This document shows positions 916 through 31,382 of a stretch of DNA of 43,063 nt, piece by piece. Made by a program: the position numbers and the translations under genes. Source of the DNA: Chiloscyllium plagiosum (Eukaryota); contig NC_057753.1 in assembly GCF_004010195.1 (NCBI RefSeq), positions 12,126,429 to 12,169,491 on the forward strand, in the 5' to 3' direction. The notes beneath the pieces are model-generated. The model ran no database searches. It saw nothing but the letters and a program-made list of their open reading frames with translations, and had not been told where the DNA came from. The stretch's first letter is position 1. Each line of letters opens with the position of its first letter.

Positions 916-1005
916 AAAGTGTGGTGCTGGAAAAGCCCAGCAGGTCAGGCAGCATCCGAGGAGCAGGAAAATCGACGTTTCGGGCAAAAGCCCTTCATCA
1001 GGAAT
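916..1005 (-). mobile_element. Penelope-derived short tail (pLTR fragment) with hammerhead motif
   Basis: Reverse complement matches the 3' end of the long Penelope element (31250-31380). Confidence 0.8.
971..1005 (-). ncRNA. Minimal type-I hammerhead ribozyme motif, intact core
   Basis: Minus strand: attc-CTGATGA-A-GGGC-tttt-GCCC-GAAA-CGTC-gat; 4-bp stem II, ACGT palindromic stem III, GUC cleavage triplet. Confidence 0.75.
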
Positions 1006-1080
1006 AGAGACAGGGTGCCTGCAGAGTGGAGAGAGGGGGTTTGGGAGAAAGTAGCGAGGAGTTTTCTTAATCAGCTGCCC

Positions 1081-1226
1081 GTTGAGAGTCTGAAGCCTGA
1101 ATGCAGGTTGAGTTAGAACAACTGCACAGGGAACCATTTTGTCTCTCGCTGCAATAGTCACACAGGGCATGGGTCTTGAGTCTCCATGTTCTAACTCAGC
1201 CTGAGTTCAGGTTTCAGACTCTCACC
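1081..1226. repeat. ~40-bp inverted repeat around a 66-bp spacer (MITE-like or hairpin)
   Basis: gttgagagtctgaagcctgaatgcaggttgagttagaaca (1081-1120) vs tgttctaactcagcctgagttcaggtttcagactctcacc (1187-1226). Confidence 0.8.
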
Positions 1227-1711
1227 CGACACGTCACTCCAATGAGTTCACGTTGAGGAGGGGCCTTTGGCAACCCAAAGTAAGGGGAGTGATGTAGAAA
1301 CCTCAGTGATTTCTGATTTCAGTTGGATGTGTTCTCACTGGGGAGAGACCGTTCAGGTGCTCTCTCTCTCTCTCTCTTTCTCTCTCTGTTCAGACTGAGT
1401 TCAGACAACCATCTGCCCTCACTGTAAATACCAGTGAGTTCATACCATGGAGAGGCTGTGTTCACCTGCTAGATGTCCCACTTTCTGAGACACCAATGAG
1501 TTCATTAGAGACTGCGAGAGTGGGATTCGCTGTTAATCACATCGTAGGCACATCCACGTTTCATTGGGCCTTCTGACTGATGTCAATAAATTTCAGACCA
1601 GCTTCGTGTGTGAACATTCAGAATAAAATTCCTGTAAATTAATTTCGTGTTACAGACAGTGTGTTGAGTCTGCTTAATATCTCTCACACAAGTGAGTCCC
1701 TTTTGAAGGAG

Positions 1712-2210
1712 AACATAGAACATAGAACATAACAGCACAGTCCAGGCCCTTCGGCCCTCAATGTTGCGCTGACCTGTGAATCCAATCTGAAGCCCATCGA
1801 ACCTACATTATTCCATTATCATCCATGTTTATCCAATGACCATTTAAATCCCCTTAATGTTGGCGAGTCCACTTCTGTTGCAGGCAGGGCTTTCCATGCC
1901 TTAACTGCTACTCTCAGTAAAGAAACTACCTCTGACATTGCCCTATATCTATCACCCCTCAATTTAAAGTTATGTCCCCTCGTACTAGCCATCACCATCC
2001 AAGGAAAAAGGCTCTCACTGTCCACCCTAACTAATCCTCTGACTATCTTGTATGTCTCTGTTAAGTCACCTCTCAACCTTCTTCTCTCCAACGAAAACAG
2101 CCTCAAGTCCCTCAGCCTTTCCTCCTCGAACCTTCCCTCTATACCAGGCAACTTCCTGGTAAATCTCCTCGGAACCCTTTCCAAAGCTTCCACATCCTTC
2201 CTGGCTCTCC
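1712..2210 (-). mobile_element. CR1/HER1-type LINE 3' fragment
   Basis: LERVPRRFTRKLPG...LFSLERRRLRGDLTETYKI motif; tandem (aacatag)n tail at 1712-1730. Confidence 0.9.
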
Positions 2211-2227
2211 CTTGATTCCCTGACAAC

Positions 2228-2515
2228 AGGTGTGAGGAGCTCTTTTACCCCAGGGTGGGGGAGCCCAAAACACGAGGGTGTAGGTTCAAGGCAAGAGGGG
2301 AAAGATTTAAAAGAGACCTGAGGGTGGTGCATTCATGGAATGAGCTGCCTGAGGAAGTGGCGGAGGCCGGTACAATTACAGCACTTGAAAGGCATCTGGA
2401 TGAATTGGAAGGGTTTCGAGGGATCATGGGCCAAGTGCTGGCAAACGGGACTAGATTAATTTAGGCTATCTGGACAAGTTGGACCGAAGGGTCTGCTTCT
2501 GTGTTGCATGACTCC
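2228..2515 (+). mobile_element. CR1 LINE 3' fragment
   Basis: TRGCRFKARGERFKRDLR..WNELPEEVAEAGTI followed by CR1-like 3' UTR. Confidence 0.85.
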
Positions 2516-2859
2516 AGGCGCATCATCACCACCAAGATTGAGACAATATGATCAGCGGTCTCTGCTGCCCCCAACTCCCTTCCACTAGCTCACTGGGTCA
2601 AACTGCCTGTGAAACTCTCTCCAGTTTATCTCCTGTCAGAGTTAACTGTTCACTCTTCTGATATTGTCCATTAAACCTTCATATTCACTGATCCTTTTAA
2701 AAAAGAAAACTGTGATTCCATGGTGTCTAAAGACCTTTTAATAGGTATCCCTCCGATGAGCTATCCTTCGTCCCTCCTATTTCTCATCGGCAGACTGCCA
2801 CAAGTGGACGTCAACCAGAGAGCAGTCTGTTAGTTTTCACGTTTTCCCTGTAAATGCCT

Positions 2860-3530
2860 CCAGGGCACTCCTACACTTCTCCTTGCCTCTGTCACCACCT
2901 CCAGTTTGTACATCCCTCCCGATCCCTGTAATCTGTTCCAGTCCTGACATGTCTCCCCATCTCAGTATCGTCTACCAGCAGCTACATCCCTCCCCATATG
3001 TGAAAACACTGTCACCTTTTCCAGCTTGTATATCCCTCCCTCTCCCTGTGATTTGTTCCAGTCCTGACATGTCTCCCTATCTCAGTATCGTCCTCCTGCA
3101 GCTACAACCCTCCCTATACGTGAAAACACTGCCACACTCTCCATCACTTAATATCTCTGTAATGTCTTGCATCCCCAACACCACTCTCTATCTCTGTCAC
3201 CCCCTCCAGCCCATACAGCCTTCTCTATCTCTGTAACCTGCTCCAGCTCTAACACCCCCTTAATCTACATAATCTTTTCCAGCCCTTCCCTATCTTTGTA
3301 ATGTCCTCCAGGAACTACAAACCTCCCTTTTTTGGTACGCTCTGCCTTGTCTCTGTAAACTCTTCGAGTCCCTACATGCCTTCCTATCTCTGTCACCTCC
3401 TCCAGTTACCACATTCTTCCATATCCCTGTATCATCCTCCCATAGCTAAATTCCTCCCTTTATGTGAAACCGCCTCCGCCATCTACATCATTCAATATCT
3501 CTGTAACATCTTCCATCTCCTACACCAATC
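2860..3530. repeat. Degenerate pyrimidine-rich minisatellite including two ~120-bp tandem copies
   Basis: Recurrent 'ctccctatctctgtaacctcctccagc'-like units; ~2893-3010 resembles ~3010-3130. Confidence 0.7.
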
Positions 3531-3539
3531 TATAGCTCA

Positions 3540-4160
3540 GAATACAACAGCAGAGACATACTGCTGAGGCTGTATAAGACTCTGGTCAGACCACATTTGA
3601 AACATTGTGAGCAGTTTTGGACTTTGTATCTCAGGATATACTGGCATTGGAGGGCGTCCGGAGGAGGTTCACAAAAATAGTCCCAGGGATGAAGGGCTGG
3701 TCACATGAGACGTGGATGAGGACTCTGGGTCTGTACTTGATCAAATTAGGATGGCGGGGTTGAGGAGGAGGGTGGTGGTAGGGGAGGATGGTATCACTGA
3801 AACGTGCAGGATACTGAGAGGCCTGGATTAAGTGGCTTTACAGAAGGTGATTCCACTAGTAGGAGACACTAAGACCTGAGGGCACAGCCTCAAAGTGATG
3901 GAACAGGCCTTTAGAAGTGAGGTGAGAAGGACTTTCTTCAGCCAGAGGGTGGTGAATCTGTGGTGAACTCATCGCCGCAGAGGAGAGCCAAGTCGTTGAG
4001 TATATTTAAGGCAGAGATCGATAAGCTCTTGATTTGTAAGGGGATCAAGGGTAACGGGGAGAAGCTAGGAGAATGGGGTTGAGAAACATATCAGCCATGA
4101 TTGAATAGTGGAGCAGACTCGGTGGGCCCAAAGGCCTAACTCTGCTCCTATATCTTAGTG
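3540..4160 (+). mobile_element. CR1 LINE 3' fragment
   Basis: LRLYKTLVRPHLKHCEQFW; ttcttcagccagagggtggtgaatctgtgg; CR1-like 3' UTR. Confidence 0.85.
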
Positions 4161-4539
4161 AGGCTGAACCATGCTGTTCGTAATTTCACTCACAGATCTA
4201 ACCTCAAGATAAATTTCCAGCCACAAAACCACACTACCTCTGACACTGGATGTTTCAATCTCGATAATGTCAGCCATGTCAACCCCAGCTCATTTGTTGA
4301 TGAAACTCTCGTCTTTGAACCTGACAATCCCAGTGCATTCCTGATGAGTTTTCACATTCACCCAGGCCCCATTCCAGAAATGTGAAATCCCCCAAACCTC
4401 TGTTGTCCAGTTCCTATTTAATATTCCCTTTGAGCTGTGTGTGTGCAGTACTTGGAGGTCTGCACAGCCGGAATGAAAATTAGAGGGGATGCTGGTCCTG
4501 TTCACTCATCACCCTCTTTGTTCCCTGACAGCAATCCTG

Positions 4540-4988
4540 CTCATTTCCTTTTGGGGCAATACTACAGCTTTATGAGTTCCCTTTTGTCTTGGCTTTCAGA
4601 AGAAAAGTTTTAAGACAGAGGTGTCAACATGTCTATTAAAAACCCATAACTCGTGAGGCCTTGGGGTTTTGTTTTTGGAACAATAGATGCAGCCTGGGTG
4701 GGTCCAGCTCTCACAGATCCAGAGATTTTCAATTTCTTAGTTTTTCAGTAGCAGTTCTTGTTGCGGTATATCTCTCCCAGTTTCACTCTCTCTGAGTTCT
4801 CCTGGGCTGCTGGAGGATGCCAGTCCATGGTTTCTGAATTTGACTTTTACTCGGGGTGTGTTTTGCTTTGAATCCAGTAGTCTGACCAATTGAATGGAAC
4901 TGGAATGCAACATTTACCTTTAAAATAAGAAAAAGAGAAGGCGACCTTCTTAAAATAACTCTGAGGTGGTATGATCTGGCCCATAACA
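4540..4988 (+). mobile_element. Possible solo-LTR remnant
   Basis: T-rich LTR-like composition ending ...gatctggcccataaca; similar-looking tracts at ~7690-8450 and ~27060-27455; no internal ORF seen. Confidence 0.3.
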
Positions 4989-5229
4989 CTTTCTCGTGCA
5001 GAACTCTGATGTCTGTTTGTGGGAGTCATTGATGATCGCAGAAACTTGGAAGTTTCACTGGGTTATTTTCACCTCTCCTTCCACTGAATCTGTAAATCTT
5101 AGCTCCACACATCCTAGTTCTTCCCTCAGCAGAAACGCGAGTGCTTAGTGCATTTAATCAATTGCATTCCTCCACTCCCAAAGTCTTTCCACCCTCTATC
5201 CCGTCTGGGTTCAATTCTCCATACCTTGT

Positions 5230-5570
5230 GTGTGGACTGAGGCCAAAGTCAATGAGGTCAGAACTGCCTCTCATGCTCATGGGAATCTAGCAAAATGTGG
5301 AAGAATAGGTGAATGATTGCTCATGTGCATAACGTTTGGACACCCTTTCTCCAGCTGAACGTGCTGATCATGCAAGTAATCGTTTGAACTTTCAAAGTTT
5401 GTAGGTTTGGAAGAAGGAAAATTGAATAATTCCTTTTGCAGTCTCAACTATCAGAATGGCCTGTCTCCTGTTTGTACTGTTCTGTCGGGAAGTGGGGATG
5501 ACCAAGCGAATCCCTTTCCACAATTAGCTAGTGAGTATTCTCTCCCAGTTGTGATTACACCCACGATAAG
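5230..5570 (-). pseudogene. Heavily decayed C2H2 zinc-finger relic
   Basis: Minus strand gives CGKGFAWSSPL..VQTGDRPF*..FESSND..HVQLEKR..SFTYSST with stops and frameshifts. Confidence 0.55.
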
Positions 5571-5579
5571 CAATAACTG

Positions 5580-6045
5580 TTGTTAAACTCGAAAGTATTC
5601 AGAAAAAAATTTACAAGCATGTTGCCAGGGTTGGAGGGCTTGAGCTATACTGAGAGGTGACATTATAAAATCATGTGGGGCAAGGATAGGGTGAATAGAT
5701 AAGGTCTCTTTTATTGCAGGTGAGGGGAATCCAAAAGTAGGAAACATAGGTTTAAGGTGAGGGAAAAATATGCAAGGGACCTAAGGAGCATCTTTTTCAC
5801 ACAGAGAGTGGTGTGGATATGGAATCAGCTGCCAGAGGAAGTGGTGGAGGCTGGTATAATCACAGCATTTAAAATAAAAAGAGGTGACCTTCTTAAAATA
5901 ACTTTGAGGTGGTGTGATCTGGCCCGTAACACTTTCCCGTGCAGAACTCTGATGTCTGTTTGTGGGAGTCATTGATGATCGCAGATATATGAATAGAAAG
6001 GGGTTAGAGCAACATGGGCCAAATGGGACTAGATTAATTTAGGAT
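5580..6045 (+). mobile_element. CR1 LINE 3' fragment carrying a locally copied ~115-bp segment
   Basis: FFTQRVVWIWNQLPEEVVEAG; 5868-5985 duplicates 4918-5042. Confidence 0.85.
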
Positions 6046-6049
6046 AGCG

Positions 6050-6465
6050 ATTTTTGAGAAGATTTGTATCTCAGATTGATGATACATCTCTAAGTTAGTT
6101 CGCTGAGCTTGAAGGTTTGTTCTCAGACGTTTCATCACCATACATCATCAGTGAGAGTCTCTGGTGAAGTGCTGGTAGTATGTCCTGCCTCTCTATTTAT
6201 AGGTTTTGATTTCTTAAGTTGGGTGACGGTCATTTCCGGTTCTTTTTCTCAAGGGTAGGTAGATAGGATCTAAGTCGATGTGCTTATTGACTGAGTTCTG
6301 GTTAGAGTGCCTGTCTGAGAATGTGTGCGTTACCCCAGTCAAAGTGGTGTCCCTCTTTGTCTGCATGTACGGAAACTAATGAGTGTGGTTCACGTCTTTT
6401 GGTGGCCAGTTGGTGTTCATGTATCCATTGGCAAGTTTCCTGCTAGTTTGTCCGATGTAGTGTGT
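6050..6465 (-). mobile_element. Penelope-like element 3' end (GIY-YIG endonuclease relic plus tail), second family
   Basis: HYIGQTSRKLA..HEHQLATKR..HADKEGHHFDW..NKHIDLDPIY on minus; hammerhead-like tctca-CTGATGA-tgtatggtgat-GAAACGTC-tgaga at 6121-6156. Confidence 0.8.
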
Positions 6466-9574: not shown

Positions 9575-10195
9575 TCATAGAACCCTTACAGTATGGAAGT
9601 GGGCCATTCGGCCCATTGAGTCAAACACGGACCCGCTGAAGAGCAACCCAACCAGACCCACTCCCTAACCCCATATTTCCCCATTGGCTAGCCTGCACAT
9701 CCCTGGGCACTGTGGGTAATTTAGCACGGCCAATCCCACCCTAACCTGCACATCCCTTGGCACTATGGGTAATTTAGCACAGGCCCATTGAGTCAAACAC
9801 GGACCCGCTGAAGAGCATCCCAACCAGACCCACTCCCTAACCCCATATTTCCCCATTGGCTAGCCTGCACATCCCTGGGCATTGTGGGTAATTTAGCACG
9901 GCCAATCCCACCCTAACCTGCACATCCCTGGGCACTATGGGTAATTTAGCACAGCCAGTGCACCCTAACCAGCACATCCCTGGGCACTATGGGTAATTTA
10001 ACACAGCCAATCCACCCTAACCTGCACATCTTTGGACACTGGGAGGAAACTGGAGTGCCCGGAGGCAACTTACACAGGCACCGGGGAAGAGGGGTGAAAG
10101 TGCAAACTCCACACAGTCACTTGAGAGCGGAATTGAACTCGGGTCCCTTGTGCTGTGAGGCAGCAGTGCTAACCACTGAGCCACCGTGCCGTCCC
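9575..10195 (-). mobile_element. HE1-type V-SINE with an expanded internal tandem array
   Basis: Head at 10195; ~53-bp unit cctgcacatccctgggcactatgggtaatttagcacggccaatcccaccctaa repeated ~6 times plus a ~170-bp duplication. Confidence 0.9.
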
Positions 10196-10207
10196 TAATA
10201 CAAGCAT

Positions 10208-10432
10208 AGGCTTAACAGACAATCAATTCTTCAATGTATAATTTCAGTTACATCACACTGCAAATTTTTGCTATAAATTCTGTGTTACGATCGAGCCCTC
10301 CACAATCACCTGATGAAGGAGCGTCGCTCCGAAAGCTAGCGCTTCCAATTAAGCCTTTTGGACTATAACCTGGTGTTGTGGTGATTTTTAACTTTGTACA
10401 CCCCAGTCCAACACCGGCATCTCCAAATCATG
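10208..10432 (+). mobile_element. Short probable Penelope-derived element (third family) with 8-bp TSD
   Basis: acaagcat at 10200-10207 and 10433-10440; contains a hammerhead motif. Confidence 0.65.
10307..10341 (+). ncRNA. Minimal type-I hammerhead ribozyme motif
   Basis: cac-CTGATGA-A-GGAGC-gtc-GCTCC-GAAA-GCTA-gcg; 5-bp stem II, AGCT palindromic stem III, CUA triplet. Confidence 0.75.
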
Positions 10433-11025: not shown

Positions 11026-12069
11026 TTATTTGTGGACCCGCTGGTGCCTCAGCAGAGTGGACGACTGGGTGAAGGCCTTCCCGCACTCGGAGCAGGTGAA
11101 CGGCCGCTCCCCGGTGTGCGTCCGCTGGTGTTCGACGAGGTCAGACGCTCTGCGGAAACCGGAGCCGCAGTGGGAGCACCGGAAGGGCCGCTCCTCGGTG
11201 TGGACGCGCTGGTGCAGCAGCAGCTCCCCGGAGCTCTTGAAGCGCTTCCCGCAGTCCGGGCAGCCGAAGGGCCGCTCCTGGGTGTGGACCCGCCGGTGGA
11301 TTTGCAGGTGGGACGACTGGCTGAAGGCCTTCCCGCACTCGGGGCAGCGGAACGGCCGCTCGCCGGTGTGGACCCGCCGGTGGACGGTGAGCTGCGAGGA
11401 CTGCCTGAAGCCCGCCCCGCAGCGGGGGCAGGTGTACGGCCTCTCCCCGGTGTGCACCCGCTGGTGCTTGGCCAGGGCCGAGGACGCCTTGAAGCCGGCC
11501 CCGCAGCCGGGGCAGCGGAACGGCCGCTCGTCGGTGTGGACCCGCCGGTGCGAGCGCAGGTCCCGGGAGCTCTTCCAACGCTTCCCGCAGTCCGGGCAGC
11601 CGAAGGGCCGCTCCTCGGTGTGGACCCGCCTGTGCGAGAGCAGCAAGGACGGGTCGGCGAAGCCCTTGCCGCACCGGCGGCAGGTGAACGGCCGCTCCCC
11701 GCTGTGCGCTCTCCGGTGCCTCCGCAGGCTCGACGGCTCGGTGAAGCCCTTGCCGCACTCGGGGCAGGCGAACGGCCGCTCCCCGGTGTGGACCCGCCGG
11801 TGCCGCAGCAGGTGGGAGGACTCGGTGAAGCCCTTGCCGCACGCCGAGCAGCGGAACCGCCGCTCCCCGGTGTGCGCCCGCCGGTGCTTCTGCAAGCCGG
11901 CTGCCTGAGCGAAGCCCTTGCCGCACTCGGGGCAGGTGTGCTGCCTCTCCCCGGTGTGGCTGCGCCGGTGCGATTCCAGGTAGCACGGGTAAGGGAAGCT
12001 CTTGCCGCAGTCCCCGCATTCCCATGGCTTCTCCCGGACGAAGCCTAGTCCGGAGCTCTCCCCTTCCAT
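11026..12069 (-). CDS. Tandem C2H2 zinc-finger protein, 12 fingers, 347 aa (ZNF-A)
   Basis: Uninterrupted ORF; 12 CxxC-x12-HxxxH units with TGERP-type linkers; ATG in AAGATGG context at 12069; polypyrimidine tract and ttccag acceptor with exon start at 12144 (the ORF-track GTG start is the exon edge). Confidence 0.95.
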
Positions 12070-13010
12070 CTTCGACAGCCGGGCCGCAACCAGGTTCACT
12101 CCTTTTGGCTTCCCGACTCCAGGTCTAGTCCCCTTTCTAGTCACCTGGAAAGTTCATCGAAACAGGGCAGAAAGAAAAAAAAAGGGAGTGAGAGCGAACC
12201 CAGAAAGGTGGTGGGTCGAAGACCCCTGATCTCCACCCCCCCTCCCCCTTATGATTTTAGAAACCTCAACCTCCTCTGCTCCAGTGGGAAACGTCCTCGC
12301 TTAACGTGTAACTCCAGCCCTCCATTCCTGGCCACACCCTGGTAAATCTTTTCTGAACCCTTTCCAATTTAATAATATCCTTCCCATAACAGGGAATGGG
12401 GAGGGGATGGCCCAGTGGTATTATTGCTGGAGTCTGAAGCCAGAGATGAAGGCATGGCGCTGGCAAAGCACAGCTGGCCAAGAAGCCGGTGTAGTGGCTA
12501 AAATGCTGAAGTCCATTTTGCAACAGTACCAGACCCGCCAACTTTAAGGGCATTTAAATGGTCATTGGATAGGCATATGGACAAGAACGGAGTAGTATAG
12601 GTTAAATGATCTTCAGATTGGTTTCACGGGTCCTTGATGTTGTGCCAATCTCAGGGTCTGTACTGCGCTGTAACGTTCTATGTTCATTGTAAAAGATTTA
12701 ACTTTGATTACAAGAGCAGGAGAGGACAGAGACAGCAGGGAAAAGGAAATCATAGTTGACAATTCTACTGCAATATCTTGGGGATGTAACTAGTCGAGTT
12801 GATAAAGGGGGAACCAATGGGTGTGGTTTGCTTGGATTTTCAGAATAAGGTCACACATTAAAGGGATCAGCACATGGGAAGTATACTGACATGGACAGAG
12901 AACAGCAGACAAGAAACAAACAGTAGGAATAAACAGGTCATTTTTCGAGTGGCAACTAGTGACTAGTGAAGTATCACAGGTATCAACTTGAACAATATAT
13001 ATTTTGATGA

Positions 13011-13310: not shown

Positions 13311-14364
13311 TGTGAGGAAACATATCTCCCAGTTTTCAGATGACACTAAGCTGGGCGGGAGGGTGAGCTTTGAGGTAGACGCTGAGATTTGTACAGGCTG
13401 AATGAGTGGGCGAATGCATGGCAGATGAAGCATAATGCGGTCAAATATGAGGGCAAAAACAGGAAGGGAGATTAGCTGAACAGTGATAGATTTGGAAACG
13501 GGATAGTACAATGAGACCTGGGAGTCCTTGTACACCAGCCACTGAAAGTATGCATGTGAAGAAAGCAAAAGGTTTATTGGCTTTCATAGTGAAAGGATTC
13601 GAGTACAGAAACAGGGATGCCTTGCTGCAATTGTTCAGGGGCCTTGGTAAGACAACACCTGGAGTATCATGTGCAACTCTGGTCTCCTTCACTAAGGATG
13701 GGCGTCCTGGCTGTAGATAAGGTGAATGGCAGGTGCTTTTTTTTCCCCTATGTTGGGGAATTTCAAAACTAGGGGGCACATTTTTAAGATGAGAGGAGAA
13801 AGATTTTAAAAAGACACAAGGGGCAAATTTTGTTTTTACACGGGCAATGGTTTGTGTGTGGAATGAATTTCCAGAGGAAGTGGTGGATGTGGGTACAGTT
13901 GCAATGTTGAAAAGGCATTTAGGGAGGTACATAAATAAGAAAAATTTGGAGGGATCACGCGCAGGTAGGTGGGACCAGTTTCGTTTGGGATTATGGCCAG
14001 CATGGGCTACTTTTGCTGAAGGGTCTGTTTCTGTGTTGTGCGACTCTATGGCTATGGAGGGATTGCAACAAAAGTTTACCGGACTTTACCAGATGCATGG
14101 GAGGAGTCATTTGGCTGGGTATATGAATAGGAAGGGTTTGGAGGGATGTGGGCCGGGTGCTGGCAGGTGGGACTAGATTGGGTTGGGATATCTCGTTGGC
14201 ATGGACGGGTTGGACCGAAGGGTCTGTTACCATACTGTACATTTCTATGACTATGACTCTATGACAGGACTGACCCATGAAGTGAGACTGGATCAGTTAG
14301 GAGTAGATTCGCTGGAGTTTAGAAGAATGAGGGGGCCAATTCTGACAGGACGAGACAGGGAAAA

Positions 14365-14485
14365 GGAGAAAGTGGGGACTGCATTTCAGAGTGGAAAAGT
14401 GGCACTGGAAAAGCATAGCAGAGATCAGGCAGCATCCGAGAAACAGAAGATACGATGTTTCAGGCATAAGCCCTTCATCAGGAAT
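14365..14485 (-). mobile_element. Penelope tail with decayed hammerhead
   Basis: attcCTGATGAagggcttatgcctGAAAcatcg on minus. Confidence 0.7.
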
Positions 14486-15064
14486 ANNNNNTGGGGAGGG
14501 GAGCAGATAGATGGGAAGGAAGATGGACAGGTCAAGAGGGCGGTACCGATTTGGAGGCATCTGGCATGAGTTAGGAGGGGAGGGGAGAGAAAGATGTTGT
14601 GAAACTTGAAAGGGTTCAGAAAAGATTTACAAGGATGTTGCCAGGGTTGGAGGATTTGAGCTTTCGGGAGCGGCTGAACAGGCTGGGGCTGTTTTCCCTG
14701 AAGCTTCGGAGGCTGAGAGGTGACCTTACAGAGGTTTACAAAATTATGAGGGGCATGGATAGGGTAAATAGGCTTTTCCCTGGGGTCGGGGAGTTCAGAA
14801 CTAGAGGGCATAGGTTTAGGGTGAGAGGGGAAAGATGTAAGAGACCTAAGGGGCAACTTTTTCACACAGAGGGTGGTATGGGTATGGAATGAGCTGCCAT
14901 AGGAAGTGGTGGAGGCATTTGGATGGGTATATGAAAAGGAAGGGTTTGGAGGGATATGGGCCGGGTGCTGGCAGGTGGGACTAGATTGGGTTGGGATATC
15001 TGGTTGGCATGGACAGGTTTGACCAAAGGGTCTGTTTCCGTGCTGTACATCTCTGTGGCTCTAT

Positions 15065-15910: not shown

Positions 15911-16689
15911 TCTGGTCTGAATGGGCCACATGCCCCCTTTGCAGGCACTGATTCAAGCCAGAGGGGGAATCCACCCTGAAACGTTCTGCACTTCAAGTCT
16001 ATCTGCTGTGGGGTTTATGCAACATGCAGATCAAAAAACTGAAATTCAGCACCAGAGGCAGAGGCTCTGTGAACAGACATGGTCTTTTCCCCCAGGGTAG
16101 GGGAGTGCAAGTCAAGGTGAAGGTGAGAGGGTAAGGATTTTAAAAAGGGACCTGAGGGGCAACTATTTCACAAAGAGGGTGATGCATATATGGAACGAGC
16201 TGCTAGAGGCGGGTAGAATTACAACATTTAAAAGATTTTTGGACTGGTGCTGGATTGGGAAGGTTTAGAGGGATATGGCAAAACCCGAAACATTGCTTTT
16301 CCTACTCCTCGGATACTGCCTGACCAGCTGTGCTTTTCCAGCACCACTGTAATCTAGACTTAGAGGGGTATGGGCAAAACGTTGGAAAACAGGACCAGTT
16401 CACTTGGAAAACCTGGTCGGTGCGGATGAGTTGGGCTTTAGGTCTGGCAGCATCTGTGGTGAGGAAGGGAGTCTGGTCACTTTTCATCAGAACTGTTGGC
16501 AGTTCGGAAAGAAAAGCCGTGCTTATGGCTAAATATGAGTCTGGGTGGTGGGGGAAGAGGTGAGTGGATAGGTGATGTTGGAGCTTGCCGGGGTGGGGGG
16601 GAATATGCAAAAGGGTAGCAGACTGATTATGTGACAACAAGAGCTAGGAATAAGCGGGAATGGGTGAGCTATACTAAAATCAACACATG

Positions 16690-16815
16690 ATTTGAAGAAG
16701 GGCTCATGCCCGAAACGTCTATTCTCCTGCTCCTTGGATGGTGCCTGACCTGCTGCGCTTTTAGCAACACATTTTCAGCTCTGATCTCCAGCATCTGCAG
16801 TCCTCACTTTCTCCC
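16690..16815 (+). mobile_element. 126-bp Penelope mini-insertion (hammerhead plus tail) with 16-bp TSD
   Basis: ctaaaatcaacacatg at 16674-16689 and 16816-16831; tTGAAGA-agggctcatgccc-GAAACGTC. Confidence 0.85.
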
Positions 16816-17002
16816 CTAAAATCAACACATGTAATGTGATGATTGCAGCGAACCTAGTCTTGAAGAAGGGTTAATACCTGAAATATTTACTTCTCCACCT
16901 CCTGATGCTGCCTGGCTTGCTGTGTTCTCCCCGCCTCCTGTGTGTCTACTAATGTGATATAGGCATAGGAGAGAATGGGTGCCTGTGCTAAAAAAAAAAA
17001 CA

Positions 17003-17313
17003 CTGTGGTTAGCACTGCTGACACACAGCACCTTGGACCCGGGTTCAATTCTAGCCTTGGGTGACTGTCTGTGTGGAGTTTGCACATTCTCCCCGTCCAT
17101 GCATGGGTTTCCTCCCACAGTCTAAAGATGTACTGGTTAGGGTGGATTGGCCATGCTAAATTGCCCATAGTGTTCAGGGATGTGTATGTTAGGTACATTA
17201 GGCAGGGGTAAATGTAGGAGAAATGGGTCTGGGTGGGTTACTCTTCAGAAGGTCGGTGTGGACTTGTTGGGGCGAAGGGCCTGTTTCCACATTGTCGGGA
17301 TTCTAGATTCTAG
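17003..17313 (+). mobile_element. HE1-type V-SINE
   Basis: tRNA head remnant, V-domain, tail. Confidence 0.85.
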
Positions 17314-18952
17314 AACAACCGATGTCATAATGAGACAGGTGTGGGGTGGGTAAAAAGAACGTGGAAGGATGTAATATGACAATATCAACAGTGACAGAGC
17401 TCCAACTGCAAATCAATCTTTGGTGTTCAGGCTCTGAAGTTATTGAACTATTTAGTCCTAGAGGCTGTGGGGACATGAAGCAGAAATCGAGATGTTGTCC
17501 TTTGAATTTATGCGGAGGCTACAGCGACCGAAATGTTGGTCTGGGAACATGGTAGTGTGTCGAAGTGGCAGGCAGCGAGAAGCTTGGGGTCATTTTTGGA
17601 GTTAGAATGTAGGTGTTTGGCAAAGCAGTCGCTCAGTCAGCATTTTGTCACTTCGATGTAGAGGAGACCACATTGTGAACAGTAGACTAGATTGAATGAA
17701 GTACAGATGAATCACCTAGAAGGTATGCCATAGAGTCACACAGCACAGAAACAGACCGTTCGGTCCAACCAGTCCATGCCGACCATAATCCCAAACTAAA
17801 CCTCTCCCACTTGTCTGCACTTGGCCCACATCGCTCCAAACATTTCTTATTCATTTACTTATCTAAATGCCTTTTCAATATTGCAACTGTACCCACATCA
17901 ACCACTTTTTCTGGAAGTTCATTCCACACACATGTTCATTCTACACATTGTCTGTGTAAAAACAAAATTTGCCCCTTGTGTCTTTCAGAGAGAGGAGGTG
18001 AATAGGAAGGTATTAAACCATTGCGATTGCATGGGACGGTGCTGTGGGAGCTTGAGGAGATGTTGGGAATGGAGGTGGAGTGGACCAGAGTGTCCCAGAG
18101 GGAATGGTCCATGTGTAATGGTTACTAGGCAGGGGGAGGGGAATGGTCATGGCAACTCGTTGGGAGTGTCAGGAACGGCAGCTTCCAATCCGTTGGACAT
18201 CGAGGTGGGTAGGTGAGGAACTGGGGGTCCTGTCATTGTTGTGAGAGGGAGAGGAAGGAGGGAGAGCGGATATGTGGGAACACAGCTTAGGGCCCTGTTA
18301 TCCACACCACTTACATCCTCAGATGAAGAAGAATCTGCAGTGAATTTCAAGTTGATTAATGTTTCTTTCCGAGATACCTGTCATTAAAAACCCAAAAGGC
18401 ATGGTTAATAAATTTGTGGATGACATCAAAATTGATAGTATACTGGACACTGAGGAAGGACATCGAAGATTACAAAAACATCTTGGTCAATTGGGTCAAT
18501 GGGCTGAGGGGTGATAGATGGAGTTTAATCGAGATAAACATGATTTATTGTATTTTGGTAAAACAAACAAGGACCTTGCGTAGTGTTGTCGAACAGAGAG
18601 ACCAGGGGTTCAGGTACATTAGTCTCTGAAGTTTGCATTAGATATAGACAGGATGGTTAAGGAGGCATCTAGCACGCTTGCTTTCATTGCTCAGGCGTTT
18701 GGGGAGACGGGTTAGGACGTCATGTTGAGGTTGTACAAGATTTTCTTTTTATTCATTCACAGAATGAGGATGTTGCTGGCTGGGTCAGTAATTTATTGCC
18801 CATTCCTAATTGCCCAGAGAGCAATTGAGAGTCAACTATATTACTATAGGTCTGGAATCAAATGTAGGCCAGACCAGGTCAGGATGGAAGATTTCCTTCC
18901 CTATAGGGCATTAGTGAACCAGATGGGTTTTCCTGATAATTGGCAATGGATT

Positions 18953-19330
18953 TATCTCCTATACATTGGGGAGACAGGCTGCCTACTTGCGGAACGTTTC
19001 AGAGAACACCTCTGGGACACCCGCACCAACCAACCCAACCGCCCCGTGGCTGAACACTTCAACTCCCCCTCCCAAGGGCATCCAGGTCCTTGGCCTCCTC
19101 CATCGCCAGACCATGGCAACGCGACGCCTGGAGGAAGAGCGACTCATCTTCCGCCCTCCCTACCTTTTATCTTAGCCTGTTTGGCACACCCTCCTCATTC
19201 TTGAAGAAGGGCTTACGCCTGACACGTCGATTCTCCTGCTCCTTGGATGCTGCCTGACCTGCTGCACTTTTCCAGCAACACATTTTTAAGCTCTGATCTC
19301 CAGCATCTGCAGTTCTCACTTTCTCCTAAG
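18953..19330 (+). mobile_element. Penelope GIY-YIG fragment plus tail
   Basis: LLYIGETGCLLAERFREHL..VAEHFNSP; RRLEEERLIFR; decayed hammerhead at ~19197-19232. Confidence 0.85.
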
Positions 19331-19353
19331 TAATGGATTTATTGTAGTCATTA

Positions 19354-19753: not shown

Positions 19754-20072
19754 GTTGAAGAGTGTGGTGCTGGAAAAGCACAACTGGTTAGACAGCATCC
19801 AAGGATTAGGAGGATCGACGTTTCGAGAATAAGCCCTTCATCAGGAAGGAGGCTTGTGGCCCAAAGGGGCTGGGAGTTAAATGGGAGTGGGGTAAGGTAA
19901 CTGGGAATGCGATAGTTAGATGAAGGTGGGGATAAAGGTGAAGCCCTAATGAAGGGCCTATGCTTGGAACGTCGATTCTCCTGCTCCTCGGATGCTGCCT
20001 GACTGGCCGTGCTTTTCCAGCATCACACTCTTCGGCTCGGATTTCCAGCATCCGCAGCCCTCACTTTCTCCA
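19754..20072. mobile_element. Two inverted Penelope tails inserted as one unit with 12-bp TSD
   Basis: ctctggattaac at 19742-19753 and 20073-20084; minus copy ~19757-19847, plus copy ~19944-20072. Confidence 0.8.
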
Positions 20073-23630: not shown

Positions 23631-24139
23631 AGGGCACTGGGGGCTGGTGGATTCCCAAAGAGCAAACTCAGAAAGTGAGGGCAAAGAGGGGTTCGAGGTG
23701 GACTGTCTTTGGGACCAGTTTGCGGATGTTTGCGAACAAGTGAACAAAAAAGAAAACTTGCTGCTGCTGCTGCTAAACTTTAAATGCTCAAGTGTTGTTA
23801 TTCCTGGACAGGCGACTTTTGTAAAAACCCTTTTTGTTGGTTTTTGAAAAGGAACAACTTTTATACACGGAAAATTCAAATCGAACTTCACATCCAGACC
23901 TGACCGAGCCGGTCCATTCATCTGGACCCAATAATCTTACAACTTTCTGGAAGTAGAAATATCCTTCTGGTTCTTCTTCGAGAAATCCAGCGCATCAGGC
24001 GAACCGTCGATACGCTCACACCCAACACTGACTGTGATAAGAGCTTTCAACAGTTGCATGGCCTAAGAAAATCATCACAGCACTTGCACTGCGGAAGAAG
24101 CGCTGCATTGCAGACGAGTGTTCAATTCGATTATCTAAC

Positions 24140-24901
24140 ATGGAAAGACAAAAGGACACAGGCGCTACAGAGAAACCGTGGAAATGCGGGGACTGTGGGA
24201 AGGGATTCAGTTACCCGTCCAAGCTGGAAGCTCATCGACGTAGTCACACCGGGGAGAGGCCATTCACCTGCTCCGACTGCGGGAAGGGGTTCACTCAGCT
24301 CTCCACTCTGCTGTCACATCAGCGAGTTCACACTGGGGCTCGACCGTTCACCTGCTCTGTGTGTGGGAAGGGTTTCGCCAAGTCCTCCACCCTCACTGAG
24401 CACCAGCGAGTTCACACCGGGGAGAGGCCGTTCAGTTGCTCTCACTGCGGGAAGAGATTCGGACGATCGTCCAACCTCACTGAGCATCTCCGCATTCACA
24501 CAGGGGACAGGCCGTTCACCTGCCCTGTGTGCGGTAAAGGATTCACTTGTTTAACCAACCTGACGTCACACCAACTTATTCACACCAATAAGCGACCCTT
24601 TCAATGTTCTGACTGTGACTCCAGCTTTAAAAGCACCAGGGACCTGCTGACTCACCAACGCAGTCACACTGGGGAGAAGCCCTTCATCTGCTCCGAGTGT
24701 GGGAAGGGATTCACTCATACGTCCAACCTGCTGGCTCACCAGCGACGCCACACTGGAGAGAGGCCGTTCAGTTGCTCCAAGTGCGAAAAACGGTTTCGTC
24801 GCTCGTCTGACGTGCTGAGTCACCAGCGAGCTCACATGGGCAGGATGCGTTCAGCTTCTCTGTTTGTGGGAGGGGAGTCATTGAGTCAGCCCACCTCCTG
24901 A
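24140..24901 (+). CDS. Tandem C2H2 zinc-finger protein, 8 intact fingers, 253 aa (ZNF-B)
   Basis: Open ORF; [26 protein letters not shown] plus 7 more fingers; C-terminal tail is a frameshifted ninth finger. Confidence 0.92.
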
Positions 24902-25140: not shown

Positions 25141-25195
25141 AAAAAGACAAACAGCGACTTGCACTTTGCTCTTGGTCACATCCAGGACTGAATTA

Positions 25196-25613: not shown

Positions 25614-25779
25614 AATTGAGCCACATGCTGTGAATTATGTTATTGGGGTTTATTTCTGCTGTTTTGAAGGAACTCCAGCCCCAGGTGCGGGTGTTAGTTT
25701 TCTGGAAGACATTTCCTCTCATCAGTTTTGTGTTAAATACAGTGTGCCTATTCTTTTTCCTAAAGGTCTCTAAAACCTG

Positions 25780-26490: not shown

Positions 26491-27523
26491 CTCCTCGAAA
26501 TTTCAATTTAACGTTGATCTCGCTGTTTGCGCACCTTCACTGCAGTCATGACATTGTATTCGTTACTGTGTTCTATGACTCTAATGCGTTTTGTATGGTG
26601 CAGTCTACCTGTACTGCACACAAAACAAAACTTTTCACTGTACCTAGGTACATGTGACAACAACAAATCAAACAAAAAAAAAAAATGCTGACCCAGCCAA
26701 TGAAGCCCACATGTAACGAGTGAATTTAAAAAATTTAAAAAAAAGTTGTTGAATCCATTGAAATGGAAATGGCGCGCTGAGGAAATTTTAAGAAAAGTCT
26801 CGAGGTATCTAAAGAGACTTGAGGTTGCTGCTTTTCCAAGATAACTGGTAGGCTGCGTGCCGCCCAGCCTGGACTCAGCAGATTCTGCAGAGGTGTGCTG
26901 TCGTGGTGCCACCCTCGCAACCCAGATCGGATTTGTGCCGTTGTTGGCCGGAGATCAGGCCGCTTCCGAGAAGGAGAGGAGCTTAAATTTCTGCTGAGGC
27001 CATACAGCACAGGAACAGACCCTTGGGTCCAACACGTCCGTGCCAACCAGACATCCTGAATTAATCTAGCCAGCATTTGGTCCATTTCCCTTTAAACCCT
27101 GAGGAAGACACCGTTTCAAGGACCTTGTGCCTGAGAATGCTCACTAAAATCTGAACGGACTGTTGGGCCAATACATTGACTCTGTTGTATCTGCCATTCA
27201 GTGGGTAATTTAGTTTGTAACTGACCACGATTTGCCTGTTCATGTGTTTACCAGATGCTAATTCTTAGTGTTTTTTTTTTATTGAGGGATTTTTAGTGTT
27301 TGTCTTATTGGTTCTTGTGTATAGTTAAAAAGAAACACATTGGTTTAAAACCCATGGAATCTTGTAGCTGCTTTATCGTATTTAATAGTAAATAGCCTGG
27401 ATTTCACGTTTGTCTGTGTTAAAAGATGCTATTGATATTTACCAGGATCGTAATACTGTGTAAGAATCAAAAGGACTGGGTGATGCTGCCAATCAGGAAC
27501 CAGCACAAAGTGCAGGGAAGTTC

Positions 27524-27660
27524 AGCATCTGTGGGGAGAAATCAGAGTTTATGTTAAGTCAGTTTCTGAGGAGAGGTCACTGGACCAGAAACGTTAACTC
27601 TGCTTTCTCTCCACGAATGCTGCCAGATCAGCTGAGCCTTTCCAGTAATTTCTGTGTTTA
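27524..27660 (+). mobile_element. Penelope-like tail (fourth family) with hammerhead and an inverted partial copy
   Basis: agttt-CTGAGGA-ga-GGTC-actg-GACC-a-GAAACGTT-aact (27561-27599); 27524-27556 is an inverted copy of 27590-27622. Confidence 0.65.
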
Positions 27661-27744
27661 TTCATAATACTGTCTAATTGCTTAGCGCAGTAAGTGCACT
27701 GGGACGCATTTTCTTCGGTTTGTGTCCGTGTCTATTTATCTGCC

Positions 27745-28012
27745 CGGACGGCCCGGTGGCTCAGTGGTTAGCACTGATGCCTCACAGCGCCGGAACCCAG
27801 GTTCGATTCCAGCCTCGGGTGACTGTGTGGGTTTCCTCTGGGTTCTCCGGTTTTCCCCCTCAATCCAAAGACGTGCAGGTCAGGGTGAATTGGCCGTGCT
27901 AAATTGCCCGTGGTGCTAGGTGCATTAGTCAGAGGGAAATGGGTCTGTGTGGGTTACTCTTCGGAGGGTCGGTGTGGACTTGTTGGGCCGAAGGGCCTGT
28001 TTCCACACTGCA
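27745..28012 (+). mobile_element. HE1-type V-SINE
   Basis: tRNA head, internally deleted V-domain, tail. Confidence 0.9.
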
Positions 28013-28279
28013 GGCGATGTAACCTTATCTGTTGTTCCATTCGCACTGAGGTGTAAAATCCTTTCTTTCAGATGGAACAGACAATCATTCTCCTGATGAT
28101 TGTCAGATCCCAGGTGAATCAAGTAACTCTGTCAGATCCTGACATGCTGTTTGGTTTGGATTTTGGGTAGTTAAAAGCACAATGAAAGTTGCCAATGACT
28201 GGGAATCCAGACCAGGTAAAAAGTTTAAGGATACAAGGTGTCGGCTGTTTAGGATAGCGATGAGAGGAAATTTAGGGTC

Positions 28280-29190
28280 ACCGAGATGTACAACACGGAA
28301 ACAGACCCTTCGGTCCGTGTCGTCCATGCCAACCACTTATCCGAAAATAATCTTGTCCCGTTTGCCAGCATTTGTCCCATATCCCTCTAAATCCTACCCG
28401 TTCATGTATGCAGCCAGATACCTTCTAAATGTTCTAATTGTATCAGCCTTGATCACCTACTCTGGTAGTTTGTTCCATACACAGCAGCAGCTTCTGCGTG
28501 AAAAAGTTGCCACTTAACTCCCTTTTTTTTTTAAATCTTTCCCCTCTCACCTGAAACCTGTGCCCTCTAGTTTTGGACTCCCCTACCCTGGGGAAAAAAA
28601 AGATCTTGGTTACTCACCCTATCTATGCCTCTCATGATTTTATAAGCCTCAGTAAGGTCAGCACGGTGGCTCAGTGGGTTAGCACGGCTGCCTCACAGCA
28701 CCAGGGACCCAGGTTCGATTCCAGCCTCGGGCAATTGTCTGTGAGGGGTTTGCACATTCTGCCCGTGTCTGCGTGGGTTTCCTCCGGGTGCTCCGGTTTT
28801 CTCTCGCGGTCCAAAGATGTGCAGTTCAGGTGAACTGGCCACGCTAAATTGCCCATTAGGTGCATTAGTCCGAGGGAAATGGGTCTGGGTGGGTTACTCT
28901 TCGGAGAGTCTGTGTGGACCTGTTGGGCCAAATGGCCTGTTTCCACACTGTAGGGAATCTAATCTAAAGGTCACCCCTCAGCCTCCTATGCTCCAGTGAA
29001 AATAGCCCCAGCCCTTTATAGCTTTTCCCTCTCTCTCAACCCCTCCAACCCTGGCAACACCATTGTAAATCTTTTTTGAACCCTTTCAAGTTTCACAACA
29101 TTTTCTCTATAGCAGGAAGACCAGAATTGAATGCAGTATTCAAAAAGTGGCCTAAACAATGTCTTCTGTAGCTGCAGCATGACCTCCTTA
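28280..29190 (-). mobile_element. CR1 3' fragment with nested HE1 SINE (28660-28966, +, TSD aaggtca)
   Basis: LQLQKTLFRPLFEYCIQFWSS..KLERVQKRFT; SINE flanked by aaggtca. Confidence 0.85.
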
Positions 29191-29219
29191 CTCCTATTCT
29201 CACCCTCATCCCAATATAA

Positions 29220-31382
29220 CCCTGGGTCAACGAATTCTGTACGCATTGCGACATTGAAGTTTTCTTCCTCCACCTCTGTGAGGCTTCCACCCACCCTCTG
29301 AAGACCCCTTCTCCCAGCTCCAACATACTCCATCCTCTGCGACACCCCATGCTGGCCTCTTACCGTTTCTTGACCTCTTTGTCTCCAACTGCCATTGTGA
29401 CATTGACTACCTCAACCTGTCTACCCCGCTCACTCACCGCAACCTTTCACTCTCACAACATGTAGCCCTCCACTCCCTCCGCTCCAACCCCAACTTCACC
29501 ATCAAACCAGCAGAAAAGGTGAGGGGGGGGGGGGCGCTGTGGTAGTTTGGCGCACCAACCTCTACCTTGCTGAAGCCAGACACCAACTCACGGACACCAC
29601 CTCCTACTGCTCCCTCGACCACGACCCTACCTCTCATCACCAAACTATCATCTCCAGGGCCGTCCACAACCTCATCAGATCAGGGGATTTCCCATCCACA
29701 GCCTCCAACCTCCCCAACCCTGCACTGCCCTGTTTCACCTCTTACCCAAAATCCACAGATCTGACTTCCCCGGTCGACCTATTGTCTCCCTCTGCTCCTG
29801 CCCCAATGAACTCATCTCCTTATAGTTCAACTCCATCCTGTCTCCCTTGGTCCAGCACGTCCCCACATATGTTCGGGACACCATCCACATCCTCCATGAC
29901 TTTCGATTCTCCGGTCCTCATCTTCACCATGGATATCCATGTCCGATACATGTCCAACCACCATGGCGAAGGCCTCCAAGCCCTCTCCTGCCAATCAGTA
30001 CCCCTCCACCGATACACTCATTCAATTGGCAGAACTGGTCCTCCCCCTCAACAGCTTCTCCTTCAAATCCTCCCACTGCCTTCAGACCAAAGGGGCAACC
30101 ATGGCCACCTGTGTGGGACCCAGCTACACCTGCCTCTTCTACAGTTATCGTCGGCAGCATCCTGCACCTTTTCCTCGGCTATATCGATGACTGTGTTGGC
30201 ACCTCTGACTGTGCTCTCAGAAAGAGGTTGAACAGATCATCAACTTCACCAACACCTTCCACTCTGACCTTAAGTTGACGTGGACCATTCAAGAGACCTC
30301 CCTCCCCTTCCTGGACATCTCCGGTCACCGACTCGACATGGACATCAATTTCAAACCCGCCGACTCCCACAGCCACCTTGACTACACCTCCTTCCACCCT
30401 CTTCCCCCCCTCCCCCCCCTTCTGTAAAAATGTGATTCCTTATTCCCAATTCCTCTGCTTCCATTGTAATTCCACTCTAGGACATTCCAGATGTCCTGCT
30501 AATTCAGGGACCAAAGTTTCCCCTCCCACATGATCAGCAATACCCTCCAGCAGCGTATCTCCTTCACTTCCCGCATCTCTGCCCTCGAACTGCCCCACCC
30601 AACCACAACTAGGATAGAACCCTCTTGGTCTTCACCTTCCAGCCCACTCTTCTCTGGATACAGCACATGCATGTCCACCATTTCCACCACCTATAATCAG
30701 ACCCCACCACCAAGGATATATTTCCCTCCCCACCCTTAATGGCGTTCCTCAGAGACCATTTCCCCGGCAAGTCCCTTGTTAGGTTCACACCCCTCCCCCA
30801 AACCACCCTCCACACCCAGCACCTAACTGCCGCACAAGGTGTAAAACCTGCGCCCACATCCAAGGCCCCCAAATGATCTTTTCACATCCAGTAGAGATTT
30901 TCCTGTACATACACCCATCTCATCTACTGTGGCTGTAGCTCTCGATGTGGTCTCCTTTACATCAGGGAGACAGGGCGCCAACTCGCGGAACGTTTCAGGG
31001 AACACCTTTGGGACACAAACACCAAACAACCCCACCTGTGGCCAACAACGTCAACTCCCCCCTCCCACTCTGCCAAGGGCATGCAAGTCCTGGTCCGCCT
31101 CCACCGCCAAATCAAAGCCACCTGCCAACTGGAGGAAAAACGCCTCATCTTCCGCCTTGGGATCCTCCAACCACACGGCATCAACATCGATCGACCTCAC
31201 CAGTTTCCAAATCTTCCCCTCCCCCTATCCCTCAGCTCCTTCGCCCTCCATATTCCTGATGAAGGGGTGGTGCAGGAAATGTCGACTCTCCTGCTCCTTG
31301 GATGCTGCCTGACCTGTTTTGCTTTTCCAGCACCACCCTTTTTGACTCTGCCTCTCCAGCATCTGCAGTCCTCATTTTCTCT
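29220..31382 (+). mobile_element. Decayed Penelope-like retroelement: RT, GIY-YIG endonuclease and hammerhead-bearing tail
   Basis: TIKPAEK..GAVVVW; IFTMDI; KGATMATCVGPSYTCLF; FLGYIDD; YIRETGRQLAERFREHL; LEEKRLIFRLGILQPHGINI; attcCTGATGA..GAAAtGTC at 31252-31286. Confidence 0.9.

What the first reader, a model, noticed from the sequence alone, without database searches (positions are those of the whole stretch)
971..31286. About a dozen dispersed minimal hammerhead ribozymes from about four Penelope-type families, with covarying stems
Seen: CTGANGA...GAAA cores at 971-1005(-), 6121-6156(-), 10307-10341(+), 14452-14485(-), 16691-16720(+), 16857-16885(+), 19197-19232(+), 19813-19847(-), 19944-19976(+), 27561-27599(+) and 31252-31286(+). 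Families differ in sequence but keep the fold: stem II GGGC/GCCC, GGAGC/GCTCC or GGTC/GACC; stem III always a 4-nt palindrome (ACGT or AGCT); stem I tctca/tgaga, (a)gtt/aac(t) or cac/gYg. Most have an extra A after CUGAUGA. Established: Penelope-like element pLTRs carry minimal type-I hammerheads whose palindromic stem III favours dimeric cleavage. Inference: roughly one motif per 3 kb here, of which 971 and 10307 look potentially active. The class is known; the family diversity and density here may not be described.
Basis: partly seen in the sequence, partly recalled or inferred. Interest (0 to 1): 0.7.

Follow-up and report, generated by a model that had tools for sequence, protein, structure and literature searches.

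The report
Penelope retrotransposon stubs carrying hammerhead motifs
These eleven motifs are mostly decayed end-pieces of five families of Penelope-type jumping genes with an already described tiny hammerhead motif, at the ordinary density for this shark-type genome; elsewhere in the genome eight U6 RNA copies are joined exactly at the predicted cut, which likely records the motif cutting RNA in living cells.

Summary
Real but ordinary for this genome. The 11 motifs lie in 10 insertions, the end-pieces (pLTR plus tail) of five, not four, Penelope-like element (PLE) families. Two sit directly behind GIY-YIG remnants of their own family-A element, one of them also with RT. This is the published minimal hammerhead class.

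Only 7 of 11 have the literal core, and 3 of 11 pass a strict descriptor. Only 971 matches its family fully; 10307 has an A·C mismatch in stem I. Stem I covaries between families (14 of 15 modal pairs Watson-Crick).

Density equals the genome background: 0.26 per kb here against 0.27 per kb in 375 kb sampled elsewhere. The genome holds at least 180,000 exact cores.

Two leads from earlier scan notes on other DNA of this genome were retested. All 8 clear U6 fusions near the motif (6 family A, 2 family C) join at the first base after the predicted cut. Short copies start mostly at the base of stem I and span the cut, so they likely copy uncut RNA. The scan had already reported all of this from other windows; the window adds examples, not a new kind.

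The parts
916..1036 (-). Family A stub; hammerhead 971-1005, predicted cut after C974; the only copy matching its family at every core and stem position
   Evidence: 30-mer pattern matching it has 16,919 genome matches; no clear target duplication
6045..6464 (-). Family B (Penelope/Poseidon-type) 3' piece: GIY-YIG remnant, then hammerhead 6121-6156 with stem II deleted
10210..10432 (+). Family C stub; hammerhead 10307-10341, AGCU helix III, A·C mismatch in stem I; target duplication 10200-10209/10433-10442 (9 of 10 identical)
14364..14590 (-). Family A stub; hammerhead 14452-14485, helix III palindrome broken by CpG-type decay; 5' end approximate
16284..16359 (+).
16441..16495 (-). Family D-like remnant with first half-core and deleted centre; seen by eye, below the 18-bit HMM cut-off
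16690..16815 (+). Family A 126-bp insertion starting at the base of stem I, C3 lost; 16/16 target duplication 16674-16689/16816-16831; empty site in paralogue L192
16853..16956 (+). Family E stub; hammerhead 16857-16885, C3 mutated and G1.1 changed
18956..19329 (+). Family A 3' piece: GIY-YIG C-terminal remnant plus pLTR; hammerhead 19197-19232 with two core mutations; target duplication 18943-18955/19330-19342 (12 of 13)
19754..20072 (.). One family A fold-back insertion: minus arm 19754-19941 (hammerhead 19813-19847, core intact, stem II weak) and plus arm 19945-20072 (hammerhead 19944-19976, core broken); 12/12 target duplication
27522..27662 (.). Family D fold-back insertion; hammerhead 27561-27599(+) with A·A at 10.1-11.1; short inverted arm 27522-27555(-)
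29175..31381 (+). Decayed 5'-truncated family A Penelope-like element: RT 29288-30756, endonuclease region 30625-31185, pLTR with hammerhead 31252-31286 (stem II destroyed)
   Evidence: tblastn E 8e-105 with P0001 and 4.7e-14 with P0028
42725..43063 (+). Younger RT fragment of the same element type (88% identical to P0001), running off the window; after an assembly gap a family A pLTR follows at L149:1552

Best explanation
The motifs are end-pieces of five Penelope-like retrotransposon families, each carrying the known minimal type-I hammerhead motif, mostly decayed and present here at the genome's average density; most short copies were likely reverse-transcribed from uncut RNA, and a minority of source RNAs were likely cut at the predicted bond.

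Shown: four families (A, B, C, E) have GIY-YIG sequence upstream of the motif in some copies; for D this rests on one interrupted locus. Copies end about 90-130 nt past the motif, and carry target duplications and fold-back arms. The stems covary between families, not within them, so the fold was likely selected in the source elements while genomic copies decay.

Inferred mechanism: the element RT primes on nicked DNA and starts inside the RNA, in the tail behind the motif (shown in vitro for an Anolis PLE, PMC11167929). It copies through the intact scissile bond and usually stops, or folds back, at the base of stem I, likely an RNA 5' end.

The motif cannot close helix III alone, so it would cut only as a dimer through its ACGU/AGCU palindrome, or with protein help. 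The 5'-OH product would then sometimes be joined to U6 and retroposed. The window copies are likely inert passengers; only 971 could work if paired with a second copy.
For: RT plus GIY-YIG remnant directly before motif 31252, and GIY-YIG before 19197 and 6121. A family A motif lay about 100-260 nt downstream, in the same orientation, in 13 of 20 GIY-YIG loci by my reading. The RT of locus L145 finds proteins with PF00078, many also PF01541.

Density: strict descriptor 3 per 42.6 kb against 26 per 375 kb; HMM pieces covering the core 0.258 against 0.269 per kb. Genome counts: 156,661 ACGT-type cores against 66 controls, plus 23,982 family C cores against 0.

Covariation: 14 of 15 modal stem I pairs are Watson-Crick over 5 families; 1 of 120 strand permutations reaches this.

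5' ends: of 72 family A pieces in 509 kb (31 fold-back arms, 2 at gaps), the other 39 are 19 long, 17 starting at -4..+6, 0 at +7..+26, 1 at the cut and 2 further down (I moved 7 rows from 'start' to 'long' on their upstream match score). Raw RNA reads of run X21 show a loose-end peak with mixed flanks at -4 (212 reads) and none listed at the cut.

U6: 5 of 5 family A matches join at G1.1 although 31 spacings were allowed; a sixth is L212; their flanks are unrelated. For family C, 2 of 3 matches are clear U6 fusions and both join at G1.1.
Against: No cleavage was measured. Run X21 showed no place where many molecules begin or end, though it is a poly(A) single-cell library of another species label and unsuited to showing 5' ends.

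No full-length element or tandem pLTR pair was recovered; the long frames were gap-filled. Family A stem I has only two firm pairs, and RNAfold gave neither monomer nor dimer of 971 or 10307 a hammerhead fold.

Stem I letters on one side (families A, E) or both sides (family B) were partly fixed by my search patterns, and A, D and E are related, so the covariation p-values are optimistic.

U6 also joins the element elsewhere: L228 about 460 nt upstream in the ORF, and L224 similarly by eye. The U6 patterns did not reach position -4. The transcription start was not mapped. The third family C match (window 32660) has no U6 signal beyond chance.
Confidence: 0.85

Rival explanations
1. The motifs are a structural or promoter signal of the pLTR and never cut; U6 joins at G1.1 through an RT pause, template switch or host nuclease at that bond.
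For: In vitro activity of animal min-HHRs is low (PMC4209133). Ribozyme mutants do not affect PAc insertion, and no reads ended at the cut (PMC11167929, parts 1-2 of 4). 11 of the top 30 U6 loci run into the 5' end of a SINE, by eye, so U6 fusions also form by other routes. Most copies span the bond.
Against: Eight of eight clear junctions fall on the same bond in two families with different triplets (GUC, CUA). There is no T-run microhomology at that bond, whereas one lies 2 nt downstream in family A. The catalytic core is kept across five families. The PAc motif did cut with protein, with C3/G8 rescue (PMC11167929).
Confidence: 0.15
2. The stubs are an independent non-autonomous family (retrozyme or SINE-like) spreading through circular RNA made by self-cleavage.
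For: Many copies are only 100-130 bp with sharp ends and target duplications. Retrozymes derived from PLEs are reported in one chondrichthyan (bioRxiv 10.64898/2026.07.22.740005, parts 1-2 of 5).
Against: Tandem Repeats Finder found no array over any motif. Long copies of the same sequence run into GIY-YIG and RT. Copy ends are not at the cut and are not circularly permuted.
Confidence: 0.07
3. The window is locally enriched in active ribozymes kept for a host function in the zinc-finger gene cluster.
For: The window holds C2H2 zinc-finger ORFs; 971 is intact and lies next to a decayed finger array.
Against: Density and the intact share equal background: 3 of 11 here against about 25 of 101. 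8 of 11 have broken cores or stems. Two insertions are absent from a paralogue.
Confidence: 0.03

Closest known systems
Minimal hammerheads (min-HHR) in pLTRs of metazoan PLEs (Cervera and De la Pena 2014, PMC4209133; parts 1-2 of 4 read, supplements not seen)
   Same: Same core, extra nucleotide between 9 and 10.1, G10.1-C11.1, palindromic 15.2-16.2, short helix I, several covarying families per genome, mostly single motifs from truncated PLEs, opposite-strand pairs.
   Different: The parts read do not mention sharks. Counts given there are about 4,000 (coelacanth) and 9,000 (Xenopus), against at least 180,000 exact cores here with a different and looser descriptor. Family A helix I is weaker (2 bp plus U·U plus A-U).
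Poseidon element PAc of Anolis carolinensis (Frangieh et al. 2024, PMC11167929; parts 1-2 of 4 read)
   Same: Hammerhead in the pLTR; reverse transcription starts downstream of it in a tail; uncut RNA is the main substrate.
   Different: They found no RNA-seq reads ending at the cut; here U6 fusions mark that bond in the genome.
Neptune/Nematis-type and Penelope/Poseidon-type EN+ PLEs (Craig et al. 2021, PMC8557442; 12 passages read)
   Same: RT with C-terminal GIY-YIG, pLTR, tails, inverted 5'-truncated partners. A CX2-5CxxC linker is seen in family A loci and absent in family B.
   Different: Clades assigned by linker motif only, with no tree against named elements. Family E loci show only degenerate linkers; C and D linkers were not seen.
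U6/LINE-1 chimeras made by RtcB ligation (Moldovan et al. 2019, PMC6789731; abstract and opening read)
   Same: U6 ending in five U's joined to a retroelement RNA; the chemistry needs a 5'-OH, which a hammerhead cut leaves.
   Different: The partner is a PLE and the junction is fixed at the ribozyme bond.
Non-LTR retrozymes (Li et al. 2026, bioRxiv 10.64898/2026.07.22.740005; parts 1-2 of 5 and 2 passages read)
   Same: Type I hammerhead, PLE origin, present in one chondrichthyan.
   Different: Defined by tandem units each with a full motif; none occur in this window.

Membership tests
PLE minimal hammerhead (family level) | Core CUGANGA...GAAA...UH | tested here: met
   All five families at genome level; only 7 of 11 window copies have the literal core
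PLE minimal hammerhead (family level) | Extra nucleotide between A9 and 10.1; G10.1-C11.1 pair | tested here: met
   A or T insert in all families; G-C or G-T (CpG decay) at 10.1-11.1 (largely fixed by the patterns, but also seen in the unbiased sample)
PLE minimal hammerhead (family level) | Palindromic 15.2-16.2, no loop III | tested here: met
   ACGU in A, B, D, E and AGCU in C
PLE minimal hammerhead (family level) | Short helix I with covariation between families | tested here: met
   14 of 15 modal pairs Watson-Crick; 1 of 120 permutations; family A has a U·U mismatch at the third pair
PLE minimal hammerhead (family level) | Location in the pLTR of a PLE | tested here: met
   Downstream of GIY-YIG for A, B, C, E; D rests on one interrupted locus (L137)
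PLE minimal hammerhead (family level) | Self-cleavage as dimer or with protein | not testable with these tools
   Only indirect: U6 junctions at N1.1
EN+ Penelope-like element | RT followed by C-terminal GIY-YIG in one ORF | tested here: met
   Window 29175-31185, broken; L145 729-aa frame with an assembly gap
EN+ Penelope-like element | Two pLTRs flanking a full ORF, or tandem copies | tested here: inconclusive
   Six candidate loci were gap-ridden; no 5' pLTR seen
EN+ Penelope-like element | Inverted 5'-truncated partner and tail | tested here: met
   19754-20072 and 27522-27662; 31 of 72 sampled family A pieces are fold-back arms
Neptune/Nematis-type PLE (family A) | CX2-5CxxC linker between RT and EN | tested here: met
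   Seen in L141 and L146; degenerate in the window copy
Penelope/Poseidon-type PLE (family B) | No Zn-finger linker before GIY-YIG | tested here: met
   L168 and L177 translations
Non-LTR retrozyme | At least two consecutive tandem units, each with a complete hammerhead | tested here: not met
   No tandem array over any motif; nearest same-strand pair (16691, 16857) is two families, both without C3
Rfam hammerhead families | Match to a covariance model | tested here: not met
   No hammerhead family among 11 matches at E up to 5; expected for loop-III-less minimal motifs (own knowledge)

The most novel reading that the evidence does not exclude
This genome is a natural archive of about a million PLE end-pieces that records both fates of the RNA: run-off copies of uncut transcripts starting at the base of stem I, and U6 fusions fixed at the scissile bond in at least two families. 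The fusions would be genomic evidence that animal PLE minimal hammerheads cut in the germ line and leave a ligatable 5'-OH.
Probability: 0.7. Interest if true: 0.65.

Novelty: new member of a known kind. Interest (0 to 1): 0.4.

Why it matters
The window itself is ordinary. The function of the PLE hammerhead is described as unclear (PMC8557442), and in vivo cutting was not detected for PAc (PMC11167929). U6 fusions at exactly the predicted bond would show that cutting happens and tell where to look for cut ends. The copy number suggests shark repeat annotations hold a very large PLE fraction. I found no paper on either point in the held library, which lacks most subscription journals and Lunse et al. 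(RNA Biol 14:1499).

Tried and rejected
Rfam scan: no hammerhead match. Pfam: 0 families on four decayed PLE frames of the window and only a sub-threshold GIY-YIG hit in L145.

Long open frames were N-runs, so no full-length element. The MAFFT alignment across families was off by one column for family C; pairs were counted on core-anchored copies instead. My first 5'-end classification mixed fold-backs with long copies and was redone. RNAfold monomers and homodimers did not give the hammerhead fold.

Sequencing runs: no RNA holder listed; run X22 laid 0 reads, which is no test; contig runs X1 and X11 cannot show ends.

'Untemplated cap G' before the stubs: G precedes ATTC 8,663 times against A 4,742. 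But in 8 of 25 inspected loci with a target duplication of 10 nt or more (7 independent), and at window 16690, that G lies inside the duplication; 6 of 25 were flagged fold-backs. So it is target-derived there. Pairing with a cap-templated C or a target preference both remain open.

A possible old U6-family C fusion at window 32660 was rejected: 58% of random controls score as well. Lunse et al. could not be read.
Full report
Setting. The window is G000:C44:12126429-12169491 of a 3.56-Gb genome. It holds C2H2 zinc-finger ORFs among many dispersed repeats. The closest named proteins to the element RT are from Chiloscyllium punctatum (79-83%), so the host is inferred to be a shark.

Observation. 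All eleven places hold hammerhead-like sequence. Scored one by one, 7 of 11 have the literal core. Three of 11 (971, 10307, 19813) pass a strict descriptor of core, stem II of at least 3 bp and palindromic helix III; 100 shuffles gave 0 hits. Only 971 equals its family everywhere. 10307 has an A·C mismatch in stem I, 19813 a weak stem II, 6121 an 8-nt deletion in stem II, and the rest have core or stem damage. Rfam sees none of them.

Families. Pattern searches and loci define five families: A (seven listed motifs plus a partial at 16284), B (6121), C (10307), D (27561) and E (16857). Exact pattern counts were 16,919, 1,472, 23,982, 871 and 825, with 0 in each control. These patterns differ in strictness and are not family sizes. 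Stem I reads UUC/GAU, UCA/UGA, CAC/GUG, GUU/AAC and GUC/GAC in A, B, C, D and E. That is 14 of 15 Watson-Crick pairs, reached by 1 of 120 strand permutations. Part of these letters was fixed by my patterns and A, D and E are related, so the test is optimistic. Within families, differences look like decay, mostly at CpG.

Link to Penelope-like elements. tblastn places RT at 29288-30756 and the endonuclease region at 30625-31185, directly before motif 31252, and a GIY-YIG piece before 19197. The sequence upstream of 6121 translates to a GIY-YIG end. Families C and E have GIY-YIG ends upstream in some loci, D in one interrupted locus. Family A loci carry the CX2-5CxxC linker of Neptune/Nematis and family B lacks it, as Penelope/Poseidon does (criterion from PMC8557442). 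No complete element was found because the candidates contain gaps.

Anatomy. Target duplications delimit several insertions. 16690-16815 has a 16/16 duplication and an empty paralogous site in L192. 19813 and 19944 are one fold-back insertion with a 12/12 duplication; 27561 is also a fold-back. Such inverted partners are typical of PLEs (PMC8557442).

Density. Strict hits: 0.070 per kb here, 0.069 per kb in 40 stretches (375,128 non-N bases) from 38 large contigs. HMM pieces covering the core: 0.258 against 0.269 per kb; neighbouring stretches 0.214; eight other stretches of small contigs 0.179. The window is not enriched. Genome-wide there are 156,661 ACGT-type cores (66 controls) plus 23,982 family C cores. 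Extrapolating the sample gives roughly 0.9 million core-bearing pieces; this is an estimate.

How the copies arise. This lead came from earlier notes and was retested. Of 72 family A pieces in 509 kb, 31 are fold-back arms and 2 abut gaps. The other 39 are 19 long, 17 starting at -4..+6 from C3, none at +7..+26, 1 at the cut and 2 downstream (with 7 rows reclassified by me as long). The reference began at -4, so slightly longer starts would be binned there. Raw reads of run X21 independently show mixed flanks joined at -4. Nearly all copies therefore span the scissile bond. This fits internal initiation in the tail on unprocessed RNA, as shown for PAc (PMC11167929). That -4 is a transcription start is inferred, not mapped. 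The G often seen before the stub lies inside the target duplication where one could be found.

Do the motifs cut? This lead also came from earlier notes. Among the top 30 of 48 U6 loci, two continue into family A at G1.1 and two into the ORF. A pattern allowing 31 spacings found 5 matches, all at G1.1 (one is the same locus as L229). With L212 that makes six unrelated loci. The family C pattern found 3 matches: two clear U6 fusions, both at G1.1, and one without U6 support. U6 ends in a 2',3'-cyclic phosphate and RtcB joins it to 5'-OH ends (PMC6789731, abstract); a hammerhead cut leaves a 5'-OH (PMC8782182 abstract, search listing). Ligation or template switching both need an RNA end at that bond. 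Fusions at -4 were not covered by the patterns, and no cut ends were seen in the one usable RNA run.

Comparison with what is known. The class, its family diversity and its scattering as single motifs are published (PMC4209133). A review passage restates the dimer model and the low rates (PMC6765202, passages; Lunse et al. not held). It is not a retrozyme array. Searches for Penelope with shark and ribozyme, with Chiloscyllium, with elasmobranch, and with U6 chimeras listed 2, 1, 4 and 1 papers. None dealt with these points by title or abstract start; passages were checked in two. Supplements of PMC4209133 and the 2026 preprint were not seen and may list a shark.

Verdict. New members of a known kind. 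The window is ordinary; the value lies in the genome-wide scale and the U6 junctions, both already noted by this scan on other DNA and here confirmed by my own calls.

Noticed in passing
window 11026-12153(-), 24041-24901(+), 601-902(+): C2H2 zinc-finger cluster: ORFs of 375 aa (12 zf-C2H2 stretches) and 286 aa (8), and a decayed array next to the 971 insertion.
   Followed up: no
window 16003-17317 and L192 (G000:C1:12134104-12137134): About 1.3 kb paralogous segment on another chromosome-sized contig, roughly 80% identical, lacking both family A insertions but sharing the family E stub and SINE; gives the order of insertion.
   Followed up: partly
window 17520-17711(-): Old GIY-YIG remnant of a PLE with no hammerhead found downstream.
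   Followed up: partly
window 32660-32730(+): Diverged family C-like tail without hammerhead, preceded by a 13-nt U6-like stretch that is not above chance.
   Followed up: yes
L210, L217, L218, L222, L227, L230-L235: 11 of the top 30 U6 loci run, by eye, into the 5' end of the common SINE; L213 into a tRNA-like sequence; L215 follows a 5S-like end (labels recalled).
   Followed up: no
L224, L228: U6 copies joined to the endonuclease-coding part of a family A-type element, not at the ribozyme bond.
   Followed up: partly
L006 and other young family A copies: An upstream 7-mer is the reverse complement of a 7-mer in the tail and could close helix I beyond an internal loop; seen by eye, not tested.
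   Followed up: no
L050, L052, L056, L153: Further Poseidon-type subfamilies with different stem I (CCA/UGG, GCA/UGC) and a longer stem II, extending the covariation beyond the five families in the window.
   Followed up: partly
window 35640-36125, 9610-9954, 2889-3143: Local tandem duplications of 244, 172 and 120 bp.
   Followed up: no
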